A DNA stretch of 64,000 nt from Escherichia coli. Its GTDB lineage: Bacteria; Pseudomonadota; Gammaproteobacteria; Enterobacterales; Enterobacteriaceae. Position 1 is the first letter of the stretch; every line of letters starts with the position of its first letter. Of the stretch, positions 43,497-53,536 are shown piece after piece. The position numbers were made by a program, and so were the translations under genes. The notes under the pieces were generated by a model. It was not told the origin of the DNA, did not search any database, and saw only the letters and a list, made by a program, of their open reading frames with translations. The stretch lies in assembly GCF_011045215.1 (NCBI RefSeq), contig NZ_CP049201.1; one strand, 5' to 3'.

Positions 43497-43550
43497 ATGT
43501 CGCAAAATCAAGAAATTAGCAAGAAAGAACAATACAATCTGAACAAGTAA
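43497..43550 (+). pseudogene. ttcC: ttcA 5' fragment (ttcC-like), prophage attachment-site duplication
   Basis: ATG...TAA encodes MSQNQEISKKEQYNLNK, near-identical to recalled TtcA N-terminus (MQENQQITKKEQYNLNK...), then stops. Confidence 0.7.
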
Positions 43551-43652: not shown

Positions 43653-43698
43653 TTGCCCCATTTTTGCCCCTTTTACAGCATTTTGCCCCATTTTTGCC
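43653..43698 (+). repeat. Two exact 16-bp direct repeats TTGCCCCATTTTTGCC spaced 30 bp apart
   Basis: Copies at 43653-43668 and 43683-43698, in non-coding DNA at the prophage end. Confidence 0.8.
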
Positions 43699-43782
43699 AC
43701 CGAAAAAATTCCAAAACTTCTCAACCTCAGCACGTTCTTGAATATGGCATATGACAATTTCCTTTACGATTTATATGCTGTT

Positions 43783-43825
43783 ATAAAAATCCCCAGTTGT
43801 CAGCAACAACTGGGGATTTACTTTT
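43783..43825. terminator. Bidirectional intrinsic terminator downstream of the HTH-peptidase gene
   Basis: Perfect 10-bp stem CCCCAGTTGT-cagca-ACAACTGGGG flanked by A-rich and T-rich runs. Confidence 0.7.
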
Positions 43826-43873
43826 CAGGCCCAAAAGACGTTCACTACGACTCTAGATGTGAGCATTTACGGG

Positions 43874-44980
43874 TCATACTAGTCGGAGCGAAGCCCTTGA
43901 TGGTGTTCTTTTGTTATTTCCGCCACTAATTGCCGCAACTCCATAAAGCAAACTACTCAATTCATCGAGAGGTACGTTAAGCTCATTACTCAAGTGAGCC
44001 AGATAAATGCCGTCTCCAGCCAGAGCAGTCATCATTTTTTCTATAACGAGTGATCTTTCGCGCTCAATTCCCCCCGGCTCACCGGTTCGATACCCCTTTG
44101 CCGTCGCATCACGCATCAAACTATTATACTGCCATTCCGTCAGCATATTTAGATTGCGCATTCTGACAATCAGGGCCATAGCCGAAACTTTCCAGAGTGA
44201 TTTCAATTGCACAATTTTATCAAACGTCGGGACCACCATCTTAACGGCCATCACGTTTTCCTGAGGCATTAGAAATGCAGAAGCAAAAGCATCCGCTTCA
44301 CGCTCAGCATCCTGCCCTTTGACTTCCCCTTGACGATGAAGTACTAGGTGAGCCAATTCATGTGCGGCATCAAAACGGCTGCGTTCACCTGACTTGCGTG
44401 TGTTAAGAAAGATATAAGGAACATCATCTTTCCAGAACGAAAAAGCATCAATACTCGCTGTTTCCTCTGAAAGCCAGAACACCTTAACTCCAAATTTCTC
44501 AAGTAGATGAACAACATTGGTGATACTCTTCTTACCAATCCCCCAAGCCTCGCGTATCGCTTGGGCAGCGACCTCAGGCTCACTTCCACGGAGATTCGGC
44601 AATTGAGGCGAAGGAAGAGTAAAGCGAGCATTAAAATAATCGCTAAGCATAACCCCTAAAGCACCTGCACCAATTGCCGCATGCTGGTCAGCAGCTTTTG
44701 TTGTGCGTAATGAACGAAATGAAACAGTCAATGGATCAATTGTTTCAACATCATCGCCAAAGAAAAAAGCCTCTGGATAATTTAAAGCACTAGCGTATGC
44801 GCGTACCGTCTCTGCCGTGGGTGCATAAAGACAATAATCTTTTTCGTATTCAATTACGATACGACTAGATAACCCGGTTCGCCTCGCCAGTTCTGCCAAG
44901 GTCAGTTTGCGTCTGATCCGCGCTAGCTTTAGTCGAGACGGATTAAAAAGACGTTTGACATCATCAACAGTGTTACTCAT
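43874..44980 (-). CDS. XRE-type HTH + ImmA/IrrE-family zinc metallopeptidase fusion protein
   Basis: N-terminal HTH (LARIRRKLTLAELARRTGLSSRIVIEYE); HEXXH motif with downstream Glu/LMP (AAHELAHLVLH...EREADAFASAFLMP); ATGA start/stop overlap with upstream gene. Confidence 0.8.
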   Translation of the reverse strand: MSNTVDDVKRLFNPSRLKLARIRRKLTLAELARRTGLSSRIVIEYEKDYCLYAPTAETVRAYASALNYPEAFFFGDDVETIDPLTVSFRSLRTTKAADQHAAIGAGALGVMLSDYFNARFTLPSPQLPNLRGSEPEVAAQAIREAWGIGKKSITNVVHLLEKFGVKVFWLSEETASIDAFSFWKDDVPYIFLNTRKSGERSRFDAAHELAHLVLHRQGEVKGQDAEREADAFASAFLMPQENVMAVKMVVPTFDKIVQLKSLWKVSAMALIVRMRNLNMLTEWQYNSLMRDATAKGYRTGEPGGIERERSLVIEKMMTALAGDGIYLAHLSNELNVPLDELSSLLYGVAAISGGNNKRTPSRASLRLV

Positions 44981-45648
44981 TTGCTTTCAACTGAAATTGA
45001 TATGTCATCATCAAAATCCTGTTCAGGGAAAATATCCGCACCTTCAAATTGCAGAGGAGCTAAAATAATTCGCTCACTCCACGCGCTTACTCTGGCAAAT
45101 CCGTCCTGATTCACCATCCCTACCGGATACGACACCTCACAGCGAATTTCTTTATTTGCCGCATCATAATAATACAGAACGATATAAGTTCGGGTGCTAT
45201 CTATCGGCGTGATCTCAGCTTTGCCTGAATGTAAGGTATCTGCTTGGAACATATCGAATGTACCCGGATTGTTGTGAACAATCGAGCGAGTTGCCTCTCC
45301 CTTTGCATTTTTGGTTTTAGGCAATCCATCAGGACGCCCGGTATGTCCGTCACCTGAGGTAATAATCAGATTAACCCCTTTGCTTGAATTAACGACCATT
45401 TCCATGCGATTGACTACTTCAGAAGACCAGCCGTTACCCTTACCAATCAGAATACGGCGAAGCGCGGCAACCATCTCACTCCAAAAGCGGAATCCAGCAT
45501 CCACTTTAGGGTGGAGCTTACTGGATTTGCGTCGCTCGTATAAAGCAGACATTAACGCATCGCGAATATCATTTTCTGTAAAGCCCAGTTTACTAAGTAC
45601 AAAATCCGAATCAATTCCTGTATGCAGAACACAATGAGGCATATTCAT
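44977..45648 (-). CDS. Hypothetical protein, partner of the HTH-peptidase gene
   Basis: ORF with GGGAG RBS before MNMPHCVLH...; stop overlaps next start (ATGA); no family recognised by eye. Confidence 0.6.
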   Translation of the reverse strand: MNMPHCVLHTGIDSDFVLSKLGFTENDIRDALMSALYERRKSSKLHPKVDAGFRFWSEMVAALRRILIGKGNGWSSEVVNRMEMVVNSSKGVNLIITSGDGHTGRPDGLPKTKNAKGEATRSIVHNNPGTFDMFQADTLHSGKAEITPIDSTRTYIVLYYYDAANKEIRCEVSYPVGMVNQDGFARVSAWSERIILAPLQFEGADIFPEQDFDDDISISVESK

Positions 45649-45884
45649 GAAAGTTTCTCCCATCACTTTTACTTCATGATTTTATCATAAAATTTATGCA
45701 AAAATCAAGAAGTGACACCCTGCAAGCGATTGTAGACTTTCTCTTGTTTTCTTACGTTCCTGCTCTCCAATTGCGCAATTGATTTCTTCAACAATATGAG
45801 AGTACACATCATAAACCTCCGACTGCAGCCAGCAACCGGAGCCTCATTCTTCAGATACCAGAACAACTCACTGCGACCTATTCG

Positions 45885-51878: not shown

Positions 51879-53054
51879 TTATTCAACCTCTTCTAAACTG
51901 CTCACTCTGGACCCTCGGCGGAAATTATCATCATTTTTAACATACTCGTATGAATCCAGAATCAAACCAGATATGCGAAGTATATCTTCCGGATTAGTTA
52001 TATGTATCCTTTTACCATCCGTATCAAGTCGAGCTCGTCTTATTTCATTCAACTGAACTTCACTAAGCGAAATAGGTAAAGTTATAAATGAAGATTTTTT
52101 ATCATAAAATCTTAACAGCCATCTATTTGTTTTACCATTCAATAGTACACCGAAATATGACTCAGTATCTTTATATTCTATATTATCTTCTGTTTGTATG
52201 ATTTGTTTTACCCTTTCAAATAGCTCCAATTCTTTGGCTGTGGTTATTATGTTGGGGTTTTCTTCATCAACAATGGCGTTATTAACTTGTGTATCCGTTG
52301 CATCATTTTCTTTAGTTTGCTCTACCGGTTGTGTAGATAGCCCGGAAACCACCATTGCGCTAACAGCGCGCTCAACGGCCTGTTTAACTAATGGAGTCAC
52401 GAACTCAAGAAATCTCTGATTAAGTTGTCTCTCAATATTTGAACGACTAGCAACATATCGAACAAACTCCAGATCAACTTCACGAAGACTAGAACTGATT
52501 GTTTTAGTAAATGAATTCAAATAAACACTTTCTTCAGCCAGTGTCCGTAAAGCCTCTGGTTTGAATTTATCATAACGAAAACGAAATAATTGTGTAATAT
52601 CGGAGTGAGTTAGAGAATCCATTCTTAATTTTAAAAACGGCGTTGAATCCATTATGTTTTTTTGTTTCAAATCCGTAAAAAAACGCCATTCAACACCATT
52701 TGTAATGGCTGATATAGTAACTTCCGGTGTTGAATTAAAATATCTTGATAGCTGTGGGCAGTGATTATCAATTTGTTCTGAAAACGATTTCGCCTCAATG
52801 AACATCACAGGAACATCATGACAAAATAAAGCGTAATCAACCCGTTCATTAGCCTTAACCCCGGGGAAGTCAGCACTATACTCAGCTTTGACTTTTCTTG
52901 GATCATACGGAGTAAAACCAAGAATATCTAGTAATGGCATAATGAGTGCTTGTTTTGTCGTTTCTTCAGTTGTACAAAACACCCCCATTTTTGCAACATG
53001 CTCTGTGTGTATTTTTAACTTATTTGCAAAATTTTCCATGCTTGTCTCCTCCAT
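51879..53054 (-). CDS. Orphan HsdR-N-like PD-(D/E)xK nuclease-domain protein (AT-rich moron; candidate defence gene)
   Basis: N-terminal motifs ETTKQALIMPLLDILGF / RVDYALF / VMFIEAKS / QLSRYF / AITNGVEWRFF as in type I R-subunit N-domains; C-terminal ~270 aa unassigned; AT-rich; likely start at second ATG (53039) after GGAGGAG. Confidence 0.7.
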   Translation of the reverse strand: MEETSMENFANKLKIHTEHVAKMGVFCTTEETTKQALIMPLLDILGFTPYDPRKVKAEYSADFPGVKANERVDYALFCHDVPVMFIEAKSFSEQIDNHCPQLSRYFNSTPEVTISAITNGVEWRFFTDLKQKNIMDSTPFLKLRMDSLTHSDITQLFRFRYDKFKPEALRTLAEESVYLNSFTKTISSSLREVDLEFVRYVASRSNIERQLNQRFLEFVTPLVKQAVERAVSAMVVSGLSTQPVEQTKENDATDTQVNNAIVDEENPNIITTAKELELFERVKQIIQTEDNIEYKDTESYFGVLLNGKTNRWLLRFYDKKSSFITLPISLSEVQLNEIRRARLDTDGKRIHITNPEDILRISGLILDSYEYVKNDDNFRRGSRVSSLEEVE

Positions 53055-53188
53055 GGTAACAATATGTATTTTGCAAATCCGAAATAATATATGTCAATAT
53101 GCTCCAGCTTAGAAAATTACTCGCCCCCCTAAAATATCTCTCTACAGCACTCCAAACCAAGGTAAAAGTTTTATCATAAAACTGTGAT

Positions 53189-53536
53189 TCATACCGGCAC
53201 CTGCGTCCGGTAACTGGTCCCATTAAAAAACACAACATCGATGTTATAGGTGGGGTTATCTGCTCCATCTACCTTTGAAATTGCCAGTGATGCAAAATAC
53301 CCAGCAAACTGTTGCTGAACCATGTTCACATAGTAGTCTGGGTAAATCTGCTGCACGATGCACTGCTGCGCAGGAATACCGTAATTCGCGTAAAACGGCG
53401 ACTCCCCCAATCCCAGCTTTAACGTCTGAATGAGCGTCGTCAGCCAGCCGTAGGAGAAATCACCGTTGGCGTCAGATTCTACTGCAACCCATTTTTTGTT
53501 GCCGTTCGCGTCGGTGACGCGGCCCCATGTTCTCAT
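53189..53536 (-). CDS. Baseplate protein (gpW/gp25-like)
   Basis: 115 aa; LKLGLGESPFYANYGIP resembles the gp25/W-family core; position before J. Confidence 0.5.
   Translation of the reverse strand: MRTWGRVTDANGNKKWVAVESDANGDFSYGWLTTLIQTLKLGLGESPFYANYGIPAQQCIVQQIYPDYYVNMVQQQFAGYFASLAISKVDGADNPTYNIDVVFFNGTSYRTQVPV

What the first reader, a model, noticed from the sequence alone, without database searches (positions are those of the whole stretch)
43874..45666. Translationally coupled two-gene cassette at the prophage terminus: unknown protein + HTH-XRE/ImmA-IrrE metallopeptidase fusion
The last two genes before the host junction share an ATGA stop/start overlap. The downstream 368-aa product combines an XRE-type HTH with an ImmA/IrrE-type zinc peptidase module (HEXXH plus EREADAFASAFLMP), then a ~150-aa C-terminal extension. 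The upstream ~223-aa protein has no recognisable family. HTH-peptidase fusions of this kind are known as stress/SOS-responsive regulators or antitoxin-like components paired with variable effectors; the position (terminal cargo slot beyond the tail fibres, followed by a strong terminator) is where phages often carry defence or TA systems. The upstream protein is a candidate novel effector/toxin.
Basis: partly seen in the sequence, partly recalled or inferred. Interest (0 to 1): 0.8.

Follow-up and report, generated by a model that had tools for sequence, protein, structure and literature searches.

The report
RosmerTA toxin-antitoxin defence cassette on prophage
The two overlapping genes at the end of this E. 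coli prophage are a previously untested member of the known RosmerTA anti-phage toxin-antitoxin family, and their sequences suggest testable clues to how that poorly understood family works.

Summary
Two minus-strand genes (rmrT 44977-45648, 223 aa; rmrA 43874-44980, 368 aa) share an ATGA stop/start overlap. They are the last cargo of a contractile-tailed prophage inserted at ttcA next to uspF.

The "unknown" upstream protein is not novel. It matches PADLOC RmrT end to end (E=1.4e-59) and is 29% identical to the verified RmrT of E. coli OLC-716. The downstream protein is RmrA (E=5.6e-143; 44% identical to the verified RmrA). The pair is a RosmerTA module: a new member of a known kind, present in 7 of 5,426 complete E. 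coli genomes.

The gene order is kept wherever the neighbour could be read, in 9 loci from seven genera and next to two distant relatives.

Four untested mechanistic predictions came out of the analysis:
- An invariant palindromic operator lies over the promoter.
- RmrA ends in an SspB-like ClpX-binding tail (107 of 113 homologues). This fits published ClpX/ClpP dependence of Rosmer systems.
- The RmrT family carries a formal beta-clamp-binding motif in one loop (51 of 142 members). It is degenerate here (TFDMF).
- RmrT has a restriction-endonuclease-like fold without the canonical catalytic motif.

Interest is moderate to low.

The parts
44977..45648 (-). rmrT, toxin gene (223 aa, pI 5.7, no membrane segment)
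   Evidence: PADLOC RmrT PDLC03935, E=1.4e-59, residues 12-223 against model 10-206/207. 29% identity and E=4e-19 to the verified OLC-716 RmrT. Start set by the conserved RBS and ATG. Maximum Kyte-Doolittle-19 hydropathy is 0.76.
43874..44980 (-). rmrA, antitoxin gene (368 aa): XRE HTH, M78 Zn-peptidase, helical C-terminal region, flexible linker and tail
   Evidence: PADLOC RmrA PDLC03949, E=5.6e-143, full length. Pfam HTH_3 and Peptidase_M78. 44% identity and E=8e-106 to the verified RmrA.
44977..44980 (-). ATGA stop/start overlap (translational coupling of rmrT and rmrA)
   Evidence: Read directly from the sequence. The tblastn matches abut in the four loci closest in sequence; 9-18 nt separate them in Serratia and Yersinia.
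45679..45708 (-). sigma-70-type promoter-like site: TTGATT, 18 nt, TAAAAT with an upstream TG
   Evidence: Consensus scan, 9 of 12 matches. It lies inside the block that is conserved across genera.
45671..45713 (.). palindromic operator candidate (21-nt arms, 1 nt apart) overlapping the -35 and -10
   Evidence: Inverted repeat, 86% complementary. The core CACTTCTTGATTT...AAATCATGAAGT is invariant in 7 loci from 7 genera (this window plus 6 others) while the flanks cannot be aligned. It occurs only here in the 64-kb window.
45656..45660 (-). ribosome-binding site GGAGA, 7 nt before the rmrT ATG
   Evidence: Read from the sequence and conserved in the alignment.
43783..43822 (-). intrinsic terminator of the rmrTA operon (bidirectional hairpin with a U-run)
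   Evidence: 15-bp stem. The 106-nt segment folds at -33.2 kcal/mol, z=-3.1. Sequence read.
45817..45841 (-). terminator-like hairpin after the tail-fibre chaperone gene, insulating the cassette from tail-operon read-through
   Evidence: Consensus scan: 10 pairs, 6 of them G-C.
44765..44932 (-). RmrA HTH_3 domain (residues 17-72)
   Evidence: Pfam E=3.7e-8. Coordinates.
44159..44500 (-). RmrA Peptidase_M78 domain (residues 161-274), with HELAH at 44348-44362
   Evidence: Pfam E=1.3e-20. Motif positions.
43877..43900 (-). RmrA C-terminal tail ...SRASLRLV-COOH, a candidate SspB-like ClpX-binding (XB) motif
   Evidence: [K/R]-P-x-L-[R/K]-L-V-(K)-COOH in 107 of 113 non-redundant homologues. The 4-mer background is 6 in 50,257 residues. 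The SspB XB peptide is RGGRPALRVVK.
45247..45261 (-). RmrT residues 130-134 (TFDMF): degenerate copy of the family's clamp-binding-like loop motif
   Evidence: A formal CBM is present in this loop in 51 of 142 family members, against 5 elsewhere in 29,445 residues. Column statistics. The loop has low pLDDT.
45268..45354 (-). RmrT residues 99-127: most conserved segment (G99, D100, T103, G104, P110, T112, K113, K116, G117, T120, N127)
   Evidence: Conservation across 142 diverse homologues.
43497..43550 (+). displaced ttcA 5' fragment marking the host/prophage junction (attR region)
   Evidence: Translates to MSQNQEISKKEQYNLNK*. Prophage-free genomes match the window to about 43546.

Best explanation
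This is a RosmerTA toxin-antitoxin / anti-phage defence operon, carried as swappable cargo at the attR end of a contractile-tailed prophage integrated in ttcA.

Shown by sequence:
- rmrT (toxin) and rmrA (antitoxin) are transcribed from their own sigma-70-type promoter.
- They are translationally coupled through an ATGA overlap.
- An intrinsic terminator ends the operon.

Inferred, in decreasing order of support:
1. RmrA represses its own promoter by binding the invariant 43-bp palindrome through its XRE HTH (about 0.7).
2. RmrA neutralises RmrT with the help of ClpX(P). Its C-terminal SspB-like tail (L-R-L-V-COOH) tethers it to the ClpX N-domain, so RmrA-bound RmrT, possibly first clipped by the M78 peptidase, is removed by ClpXP (about 0.5).
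3. When infection or another stress interrupts this delivery or the supply of RmrA, free RmrT accumulates and arrests the cell or the phage.
4. RmrT is a soluble protein with a restriction-endonuclease-like fold that acts on DNA replication. It either docks to the beta sliding clamp through its conserved loop motif, attacks DNA, or does both (about 0.35-0.45 for a replication/DNA target).
For: Identity:
- Full-length PADLOC hits to RmrT and RmrA.
- Homology to the experimentally verified OLC-716 pair taken from Millman 2022 supplementary Table: RmrT 29% identity, E=4e-19; RmrA 44% identity, E=8e-106.
- Delta-rmrA could not be obtained in the verified system, and the system protects against phage.

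Co-occurrence:
- rmrT is followed directly by rmrA in 9 of 9 loci from Escherichia, Kluyvera, Pragia, Enterobacillus, Enterobacter, Serratia and Yersinia.
- The same holds next to distant RmrT relatives P0024 and P0033 and in Acinetobacter.

Cargo status:
- A sister prophage at the same site carries a different gene in the slot.
- The cassette is rare, 7 of 5,426 genomes.
- Its GC content is lower than its surroundings.

Operator.

ClpX link:
- Tail statistics and the SspB XB sequence.
- An XB region docks to the ClpX zinc-binding domain.
- clpP is essential because of a prophage TA of this architecture in E. coli E101.
- clpX is essential only in Rosmer-carrying Pectobacteriaceae.
- RipB antitoxin action depends on ClpX.

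Toxin target:
- A formal clamp-binding motif sits in one loop in 51 of 142 family members, against 5 elsewhere; shuffles average 0.34; the flank is acidic.
- The motif definition comes from PMC11139829.
- The verified RmrT has QLKLDL at that position.
- The Rosmer toxin RipA binds the DnaN hydrophobic pocket.
Against: No function was tested. Toxicity, neutralisation and phage protection are inferred from relatives that are only 29% (RmrT) and 44% (RmrA) identical.

Against the clamp-binding idea for this protein:
- Its motif is degenerate (TFDMF). It has no Gln and has Phe at position 2, so it fails the formal CBM definition.
- Only 36% of family members meet that definition.
- The conserved Leu-Phe could simply be a structural contact.
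- RipA belongs to a different RmrT subfamily (PDLC03931). Its homology to this family is not established (hhalign probability 2%, p=0.02).

Against a nuclease:
- The canonical D...(D/E)xK positions on strands 2 and 3 are not conserved.

Against a general ClpX-tail model:
- The tail is absent from streptococcal RipB and from the phage Tritos homologue.
- I could not check whether the E101 or Pectobacterium antitoxins have it.
- Our tail has Ala rather than Pro at position -2 and no terminal Lys.

The role of the Zn-peptidase domain remains unexplained.
Confidence: 0.78

Rival explanations
1. The pair is mainly an addiction/stabilisation module. It keeps the prophage, or its cargo end, from being lost and makes host ClpXP indispensable, without giving meaningful phage defence.
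For: Related modules were first found as plain TA systems. vmi480/vmi470 kills E. coli unless the antitoxin is present. The E101 module makes clpP essential and is lost when the prophage excises. rmrA is essential in Pectobacteriaceae. RipAB in S. pneumoniae acts in competence signalling, not defence.
Against: The verified homologous system does protect against phages, and another Rosmer system protects against BASEL myoviruses. The cassette occupies a variable moron slot typical of defence cargo. The two roles are not mutually exclusive.
Confidence: 0.2
2. The HTH-peptidase protein is the prophage's own immunity or induction switch: an ImmR/ImmA, CI-like or CapH/CapP-like repressor-protease that controls lysogeny. 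The upstream gene would then be an accessory regulator.
For: HTH plus M78 proteins are often annotated as phage repressors: phrog_2439 'transcriptional regulator' and 'cI-like repressor' in phiCD418. PADLOC also gives weaker hits to CapP and CapH.
Against: The cassette lies at the tail-fibre/attR end, far from any regulatory region. Its operator occurs only at its own promoter within 64 kb. A sister prophage at the same site lacks it entirely. The same pair occurs outside prophages, for example between nrd and a LysR gene, and on a P4-like satellite. The HTH and protease are fused, not separate proteins as in ImmR/ImmA.
Confidence: 0.04
3. Rival toxin mechanism: RmrT is an active PD-(D/E)xK-type nuclease that degrades DNA or RNA. 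The loop motif would be structural only, with no role for the sliding clamp.
For: Two independent AF2 models give NaeI, ThaI, BglI, SfiI, SwaI, EcoRV, Hjc and RecU as the only matches longer than 100 residues. The order of secondary-structure elements (helix, three strands, helix, strand) fits the core fold. Invariant acidic and basic residues are present: D100, K113, K116, D162, E167, R169, E171, R193.
Confidence: 0.25
4. Rival toxin mechanism: RmrT depolarises the membrane, like the RmrT(D5) toxin of Gordonia phage Kita. Secondary literature often quotes this as the Rosmer mechanism.
For: Ernits et al. 2023 showed membrane depolarisation for the Kita toxin. Later papers generalise this to 'RmrT'.
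Against: The Kita toxin is an unrelated protein with predicted membrane-localised regions. This RmrT has no hydrophobic segment (maximum KD-19 0.76), is acidic and is predicted to be globular. It belongs to a different RmrT family.
Confidence: 0.03

Closest known systems
RosmerTA of E. coli OLC-716 (Millman et al. 2022; RmrT WP_000286846.1, RmrA WP_000483388.1)
   Same: Toxin-first two-gene operon. The RmrT proteins are homologous over their full length, as are the RmrA proteins, with the same HTH, M78 and C-terminal architecture and an LRLV(K) tail. There is a palindrome over the promoter, and the system is carried on a mobile element.
   Different: Only 29% (RmrT) and 44% (RmrA) identity. 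The two match different PADLOC sub-models. The operator sequence differs. OLC-716 has a 9-nt gap between the genes rather than an ATGA overlap. It sits on a P4-like satellite rather than at the end of a myovirus-type prophage. The loop motif is QLKLDL there and TFDMF here.
vmi480/vmi470 of Vibrio mimicus MGIVmi1 (Luo et al. 2015) and the E101_02645/02644 prophage module of E. coli E101 (Rousset et al. 2020/2021)
   Same: An upstream toxin of about 200 aa with no known domain, followed by an antitoxin of about 362-370 aa with an HTH and a Zn-peptidase. The toxin is lethal alone. The E101 module is prophage-borne and makes clpP essential.
   Different: I could not obtain these sequences, so direct homology to this pair is untested. 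vmi480/vmi470 have a 5-bp gap rather than an overlap.
RipA/RipB (Spr1630/Spr1629) of Streptococcus pneumoniae
   Same: Both proteins are catalogued as RmrT and RmrA. They have similar sizes, the toxin gene comes first, and the antitoxin needs ClpX. The toxin has an x-D-L-F motif (N-terminal MLNQDLFD) and physically targets the DnaN pocket.
   Different: RipA is in a different RmrT subfamily (PDLC03931), and homology to this RmrT is not established (p=0.02). RipB lacks the LRLV tail. RipAB is chromosomal and is linked to competence rather than defence.
SocA/SocB (Caulobacter, type VI TA) and the SspB adaptor
   Same: Working analogy only. In SocAB the antitoxin acts as a ClpXP adaptor for a clamp-binding toxin, so ClpXP becomes essential (discussed). 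The SspB C-terminal XB peptide RGGRPALRVVK resembles the RmrA tail.
   Different: No sequence or domain relationship to SocA, SocB or the SspB body. RmrA also has an HTH and a Zn-peptidase domain. Adaptor activity has not been tested.
ImmR/ImmA (ICEBs1), DdrO/IrrE and CapH/CapP regulator-protease pairs
   Same: An XRE-type HTH and an M78 (ImmA/IrrE) Zn-peptidase with HEXXH. There are weak PADLOC hits to CapP (E=1.2e-19) and CapH (E=1.2e-5).
   Different: In those systems the repressor and the protease are separate proteins, and the output is transcriptional derepression. Here the two are fused in one 368-aa protein that is paired with a toxin.

Membership tests
RosmerTA (RmrT/RmrA) defence/TA system | Antitoxin RmrA with an XRE-type HTH and an M78 (ImmA/IrrE) Zn-peptidase domain with an intact HEXXH | tested here: met
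   PADLOC RmrA PDLC03949, E=5.6e-143, full length. Pfam HTH_3 and Peptidase_M78. HELAH at 207-211.
RosmerTA (RmrT/RmrA) defence/TA system | Adjacent toxin gene on the same strand that matches a catalogued RmrT family | tested here: met
   PADLOC RmrT PDLC03935, E=1.4e-59, full length. 29% identity, E=4e-19 to the verified RmrT. ATGA overlap.
RosmerTA (RmrT/RmrA) defence/TA system | The two genes co-occur across genomes | tested here: met
   9 of 9 genomic loci, two distant family members and Acinetobacter. A third distant member (P0020) lies on a 1.7-kb contig; its downstream gene is cut off and could not be typed.
RosmerTA (RmrT/RmrA) defence/TA system | RmrT is toxic and RmrA neutralises it | not testable with these tools
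   Shown only for relatives: delta-rmrA not obtainable; vmi480/vmi470; RipAB.
RosmerTA (RmrT/RmrA) defence/TA system | Protection against phage infection | not testable with these tools
   Shown for OLC-716 and for the phage Kita system, not for this subfamily.
PD-(D/E)xK (restriction-endonuclease-like) nucleases, for RmrT | Core alpha-beta-beta-beta-alpha-beta fold | tested here: inconclusive
PD-(D/E)xK (restriction-endonuclease-like) nucleases, for RmrT | Conserved catalytic D...(D/E)xK on strands 2 and 3 | tested here: not met
   E83 is present in only 35% of 142 homologues and strand 3 has no ExK. The conserved polar residues lie elsewhere: D100, K113, K116, D162, E167, R169, E171, R193.
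Beta-clamp (DnaN) ligands carrying a clamp-binding motif, for RmrT | Q-phi-x-[L/M]-[F/L] or Q-phi-x-[L/M]-x-[F/L] in an exposed loop or terminus (definition from PMC11139829) | tested here: inconclusive
   At family level, 51 of 142 members have it in one loop, against 5 elsewhere in 29,445 residues, with an acidic flank. This protein has TFDMF, which fails the formal definition but keeps the D-M-F of the Pol III alpha motif QADMF. Solvent exposure could not be measured.
SspB/RssB-type ClpX adaptors, for RmrA | C-terminal XB motif (...RPALRVVK-COOH) after a flexible linker | tested here: met
   Consensus [K/R]-P-x-L-[R/K]-L-V-(K)-COOH in 107 of 113 homologues. Ours is AISGGNNKRTPSRASLRLV-COOH. 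The reference peptide is given. The match is to the motif only.
SspB/RssB-type ClpX adaptors, for RmrA | Binds the ClpX N-domain and speeds up degradation of a bound cargo | not testable with these tools
   Only indirect genetics in related systems.
ImmR/ImmA- or CapH/CapP-type two-protein regulator pairs | Repressor and protease are separate polypeptides, and the protease cleaves the repressor | tested here: not met
   The HTH and M78 domains are fused in one ORF. No separate small HTH gene lies in the cassette.
Kita-type membrane-depolarising RmrT(D5) | Toxin with a predicted transmembrane region | tested here: not met
   Maximum 19-residue hydropathy is 0.76. The AF2 model is globular. The RmrT family is different.

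The most novel reading that the evidence does not exclude
RosmerTA of this widespread gamma-proteobacterial type may work as a proteolytic-adaptor TA, with SocAB-like ('type VI') logic built from unrelated parts. RmrA would use an SspB-like C-terminal tail to dock on ClpX and hand over RmrT for destruction. RmrT would be a restriction-endonuclease-fold protein that docks on the beta sliding clamp through a loop-borne clamp-binding motif and blocks, or cuts at, replication forks. Defence would fire when infection disturbs ClpXP delivery or RmrA supply. I found none of these three features (XB tail, clamp-binding loop motif, REase-like fold) described for Rosmer in the searchable literature.
Probability: 0.3. 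Interest if true: 0.6.

Novelty: new member of a known kind. Interest (0 to 1): 0.38.

Why it matters
As a genome feature it is ordinary. A standard defence-system annotator (PADLOC or DefenseFinder) would call it RosmerTA, even though RefSeq still labels the genes "hypothetical protein" and "helix-turn-helix domain-containing protein".

Its value is as a lead into the Rosmer mechanism, which is still largely unknown for the main soluble RmrT family. Three published but unexplained observations are that clpP or clpX becomes essential in strains carrying such modules. A conserved SspB-like ClpX-docking tail on RmrA would explain them. A clamp-binding-type motif conserved in the RmrT loop would connect the E. 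coli-type toxins to the one Rosmer toxin with a known target (RipA, which targets DnaN). Both ideas can be tested with point mutants in a few simple experiments.

The locus also documents a swappable cargo slot between the last tail-fibre chaperone gene and attR of a ttcA-integrating myovirus-type prophage.

Tried and rejected
- Pfam, NCBIfam and PHROGs gave nothing for RmrT. Pfam also gave nothing on any of the 142 family members.
- Searching PDB sequences with the narrow and broad RmrT profiles gave nothing significant. The best hit was BfiI at E=0.18, which I disregarded. RmrA had no PDB sequence relative.
- Foldseek against AFDB50 returned only uncharacterised family members.
- I tried to place the E. 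coli E101 ClpP-dependent module in the same family. Its accessions are not those of the OLC-716 pair. The partially similar rmrA in strains 1105 and HH45 is only a 96-aa remnant. This remains unresolved.
- I tried to prove RipA is homologous to this RmrT. I recovered the RipA sequence through a published primer, but hhalign gave only p=0.06 with a single sequence and p=0.02 with a small family alignment. Not established.
- The search for related loci with the broad alignment failed because it has no conserved 7-10-residue stretch. The narrow alignment gave 7 loci.
- A membrane-toxin mechanism was rejected: there is no hydrophobic segment.
- A role as the prophage immunity switch was rejected on position, operator uniqueness and the absence of the cassette from a sister prophage.
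- An ADP-ribosyltransferase-like R-S-E reading of the conserved residues was considered and dropped. No fold match supports it and there is no ExE motif.
- The alternative cargo gene in strain F2_407_2_2 has no PADLOC or Pfam match.
Full report
**1. Observation**

The window holds two minus-strand ORFs at the stated coordinates: 44977-45666 (229 aa from a GTG) and 43874-44980 (368 aa). The + strand reads TCAT at 44977-44980, which is ATGA on the coding strand. The stop of the upstream gene therefore overlaps the start of the downstream gene.

The upstream gene most likely starts at ATG 45648, giving 223 aa (MNMPHC...). A GGAGA ribosome-binding site lies 7 nt before this ATG. This ATG, not the upstream GTG or the RefSeq ATG, is the one conserved in six other genera.

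The downstream protein has HTH_3 (residues 17-72) and Peptidase_M78 (161-274). HELAH is at 207-211 and EREADAFASAFLMP at 226-239. That leaves 94 residues beyond the Pfam peptidase domain, not about 150.

**2. Context**

The flank carries nifJ/ydbK, ompN and uspF, so the host is Escherichia. Genomes with no prophage here have uspF next to ttcA and match the window only to about 43546. A displaced ttcA 5' fragment (MSQNQEISKKEQYNLNK*) lies at 43497-43550.

Beyond the cassette come two tail-fibre/chaperone pairs, then baseplate, sheath and other contractile-tail genes. The cassette is therefore the last cargo before attR of a myovirus-type prophage.

Within the cassette:
- A terminator-like hairpin follows the fibre-chaperone gene (45817-45841).
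- A promoter-like site lies at 45679-45708.
- A 15-bp stem-loop with a U-run follows rmrA.

Only 7 of 5,426 complete E. coli genomes carry the cassette. All have it at this site, annotated only as "hypothetical protein" and "helix-turn-helix domain-containing protein".

A sister prophage in strain F2_407_2_2 has 95% identical fibre genes at the same integration site. It carries a single unrelated 317-aa gene in the slot. Colinearity between the two prophages breaks at about 43700 and resumes at the chaperone gene. The 2.2-kb cassette is therefore a swappable moron. Its GC content is 45.0%, against 48.2% for the prophage and 49.9% for the host flank.

**3. Identity**

PADLOC gives full-length matches:
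- The upstream protein matches RmrT (PDLC03935, E=1.4e-59, residues 12-223 against model positions 10-206 of 207).
- The downstream protein matches RmrA (PDLC03949, E=5.6e-143).

RosmerTA was defined by Millman et al. (2022). [quoted passage not shown] Delta-rmrA could not be obtained, and defence was measured at 37 C.

Their supplementary table gives the verified system, from E. coli OLC-716. Against it:
- Our RmrT is 29% identical over essentially its full length (E=4e-19).
- Our RmrA is 44% identical over its full length (E=8e-106).

The upstream protein is therefore not a novel effector. It is a diverged member of the same toxin family as the verified one.

That family is large. A profile search of 1.84 billion cluster representatives found 1,469 clusters at E<=1e-3. 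Nearly all are 210-235 aa and match end to end. AFDB relatives span Proteobacteria, Actinobacteria, Chloroflexi and Desulfobacterota, and all are uncharacterised. Our exact proteins, or proteins at least 90% identical to them, are already on hundreds of E. coli and Salmonella contigs.

**4.

In all 9 genomic loci examined, rmrT is followed directly by rmrA. The loci come from two E. coli strains, Kluyvera, Pragia, Enterobacillus, Enterobacter, Serratia (two copies) and Yersinia. The genes overlap or are separated by at most 18 nt.

Two distant family representatives, P0024 and P0033, are each followed by a 366-371-aa HTH plus M78 protein. In one case the pair sits next to an integrase at smpB. 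A third representative (P0020) lies on a 1.7-kb contig. A same-strand gene starts 6 nt downstream, but it is cut off and could not be typed. An Acinetobacter pair at 28% and 36% identity keeps the same order.

The test is passed.

**5. Regulatory anatomy**

A 21-nt-arm inverted repeat (45671-45691 and 45693-45713) overlaps the -35 TTGATT and the extended -10 TAAAAT.

Across seven loci from seven genera (this window plus six others), the core CACTTCTTGATTT...AAATCATGAAGT is invariant while the flanking DNA cannot be aligned. This holds even where the proteins are only 57-70% identical. The half-site occurs nowhere else in the 64-kb window.

This is the expected signature of an operator for the RmrA HTH, meaning autorepression. 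That is an inference. The verified OLC-716 system has a different palindrome at the equivalent place.

**6. How RmrA may neutralise RmrT**

Three independent reports link Rosmer-type modules to ClpX or ClpP:
- A prophage TA of this architecture makes clpP essential in E. coli E101.
- clpX is essential only in the three Pectobacteriaceae strains that carry RosmerTA, and rmrA is essential there too.
- The pneumococcal antitoxin RipB works only if ClpX is intact.

RmrA ends in ...AISGGNNKRTPSRASLRLV-COOH, and the verified RmrA ends in ...RPSHLRLVK. Among 113 non-redundant full-length homologues, 107 end in [K/R]-P-x-L-[R/K]-L-V followed by zero or one residue, most often K. A Gly/Ser/Pro-rich linker precedes the tail. 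The core 4-mer occurs only 6 times in the other 50,257 residues of 141 homologues.

The ClpX-binding (XB) peptide of the adaptor SspB is NH2-RGGRPALRVVK-COOH. A conserved C-terminal ClpX-binding region docks SspB and RssB to the ClpX zinc-binding domain.

I therefore propose that RmrA tethers itself to ClpX and delivers RmrT to ClpXP. This explains why losing ClpX or ClpP is lethal when the module is present. If ClpXP instead degraded the antitoxin, its loss would be harmless.

Caveats:
- The Acinetobacter homologue has a degenerate tail (...RRSQLTVLE).
- Streptococcal RipB and the phage Tritos homologue lack the tail.
- Our tail has Ala instead of Pro at position -2 and no terminal Lys.
- Nothing here has been tested biochemically.
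- The role of the M78 peptidase is open. It might clip RmrT to expose a degron, or cleave RmrA itself as in ImmA/ImmR or CapP/CapH logic, as Ernits et al. suggest.
- I found no paper linking Rosmer to a ClpX adaptor.

**7. What RmrT may do**

RmrT is acidic (pI 5.7) and has no hydrophobic segment. The membrane-depolarising mechanism shown for the unrelated Kita RmrT(D5), which later papers generalise to all RmrT, therefore does not apply.

The canonical D...(D/E)xK positions are not conserved, however. The family-invariant residues lie in the loop after strand 3 (G99, D100, T103, G104, P110, T112, K113, K116, G117, N127) and on the last strands (D162, E167, R169, E171, S173, P175, W190, R193). 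The fold is restriction-endonuclease-like, but nuclease activity is unproven.

*Loop motif.* Directly after the near-invariant N127, in the low-confidence loop, the family consensus reads Q-L-[D/S]-L-F. I applied the formal clamp-binding-motif definitions from a recent review (Q-phi-x-[L/M]-[F/L] or Q-phi-x-[L/M]-x-[F/L]):
- 51 of 142 members have a motif in this 13-residue window.
- Only 5 motifs occur in the remaining 29,445 residues.
- Shuffled sequences average 0.34.
- The six residues after the motif are enriched in acidic residues (1.78 against 0.86) and depleted in basic ones. The review notes this favours clamp binding.

The verified OLC-716 RmrT has QLKLDL at this position. Our protein has TFDMF. 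That fails the formal definition but shares D-M-F with the internal Pol III alpha motif QADMF.

*Link to RipA.* The only Rosmer toxin with a known target, RipA, binds DnaN. Mutations in the clamp's hydrophobic pocket suppress it. I recovered RipA through a published primer. It starts MLNQDLFD and matches a different PADLOC RmrT model (PDLC03931). Profile-profile comparison with our family is collinear but not significant (p=0.02), so homology is not established.

My reading is that a replication or DNA target is the most likely one, with clamp docking, DNA cleavage or both as possibilities (about 0.35-0.45). For this particular protein the motif evidence is weaker than for the family as a whole.

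**8. Comparison with what is known, and novelty**

The cassette meets every sequence-testable criterion for RosmerTA. It fails the defining features of three other candidates: ImmR/ImmA-type two-protein switches (the HTH and protease are fused here), Kita-type membrane toxins, and canonical PD-(D/E)xK nucleases.

It is a new member of a known kind. It is a diverged, experimentally untested subfamily found in Enterobacterales prophages.

I did not find the following in the searchable literature: the SspB-like tail, the clamp-binding-type loop motif, the restriction-endonuclease-like fold, or the invariant operator. These are predictions, not findings.

**9. Verdict**

- Interest is 0.38.
- The most novel reading that the evidence does not exclude is a ClpX-adaptor antitoxin delivering a clamp-docking toxin. 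I give it a probability of about 0.3.

Noticed in passing
window 51879-53536 (-): A 391-aa endonuclease-like ORF (phrog_4225; RefSeq 'type I restriction endonuclease'; no PADLOC hit) and a 115-aa ORF sit between baseplate genes. In the sister prophage of strain F2_407_2_2 that position holds an LprI-family gene and an AntA/AntB antirepressor gene instead. This looks like a second variable cargo slot inside the tail module.
   Followed up: partly
L016:4926-5879 (E. coli F2_407_2_2, same slot as window ~43700-45880): In place of rmrTA, the sister prophage carries a single 317-aa hypothetical protein (WP_061330198.1) on the opposite strand. It has no PADLOC or Pfam match. It is an uncharacterised candidate cargo or defence gene.
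   Followed up: partly
window 43653-43698: The direct repeat TTGCCCCATTTTTGCC occurs twice, 30 bp apart, in the att-proximal arm of the prophage. This stretch is shared with the Rac prophage end of K-12 (the match extends to about 43724). The repeats may be integrase or excisionase arm-type sites.
   Followed up: no
window 43497-43550 (+): A truncated ttcA 5' fragment (MSQNQEISKKEQYNLNK*) was left by prophage integration. It is analogous to the ttcC pseudogene next to Rac in K-12.
   Followed up: partly
window 45649-45666 (-): RefSeq annotates rmrT as 228 aa, starting at ATG 45663. The conserved Shine-Dalgarno GGAGA (45656-45660) and cross-genus conservation point to ATG 45648 (223 aa), so the database start is probably 5 codons too long.
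   Followed up: yes
L018:5208-7049 (E. coli 2011C-4251): The experimentally verified OLC-716-type RosmerTA lies on a P4-like satellite, next to a DNA primase gene and an Icd-like gene. It has its own, different palindrome (ATTTTCTTGTTTTT...AAAAAATAGAAAAT) over its promoter.
   Followed up: partly
L023:6545-8442 (metagenome contig carrying S. pneumoniae-type ripA-ripB): RipA begins MLNQDLFD (TDLFD in a S. constellatus homologue). This clamp-binding-like motif at the extreme N-terminus is not mentioned in the paper that showed RipA targets the DnaN pocket.
   Followed up: partly
L031:1148-2904 (Escherichia phage Tritos): An HTH-M78 RmrA-like protein (30% identity) overlaps a different 204-aa upstream partner and lacks the LRLV tail. 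A HokD toxin gene lies just upstream. This is another toxin/RmrA-like combination on a coliphage.
   Followed up: no
L019:4109-4399 (E. coli strain 1105 and three other genomes): A 96-aa remnant of an rmrA-like peptidase gene (86% DNA identity to window 44084-44497) lies in a CP4-57/yfjQ-type island. It is a decayed copy of a related module.
   Followed up: no
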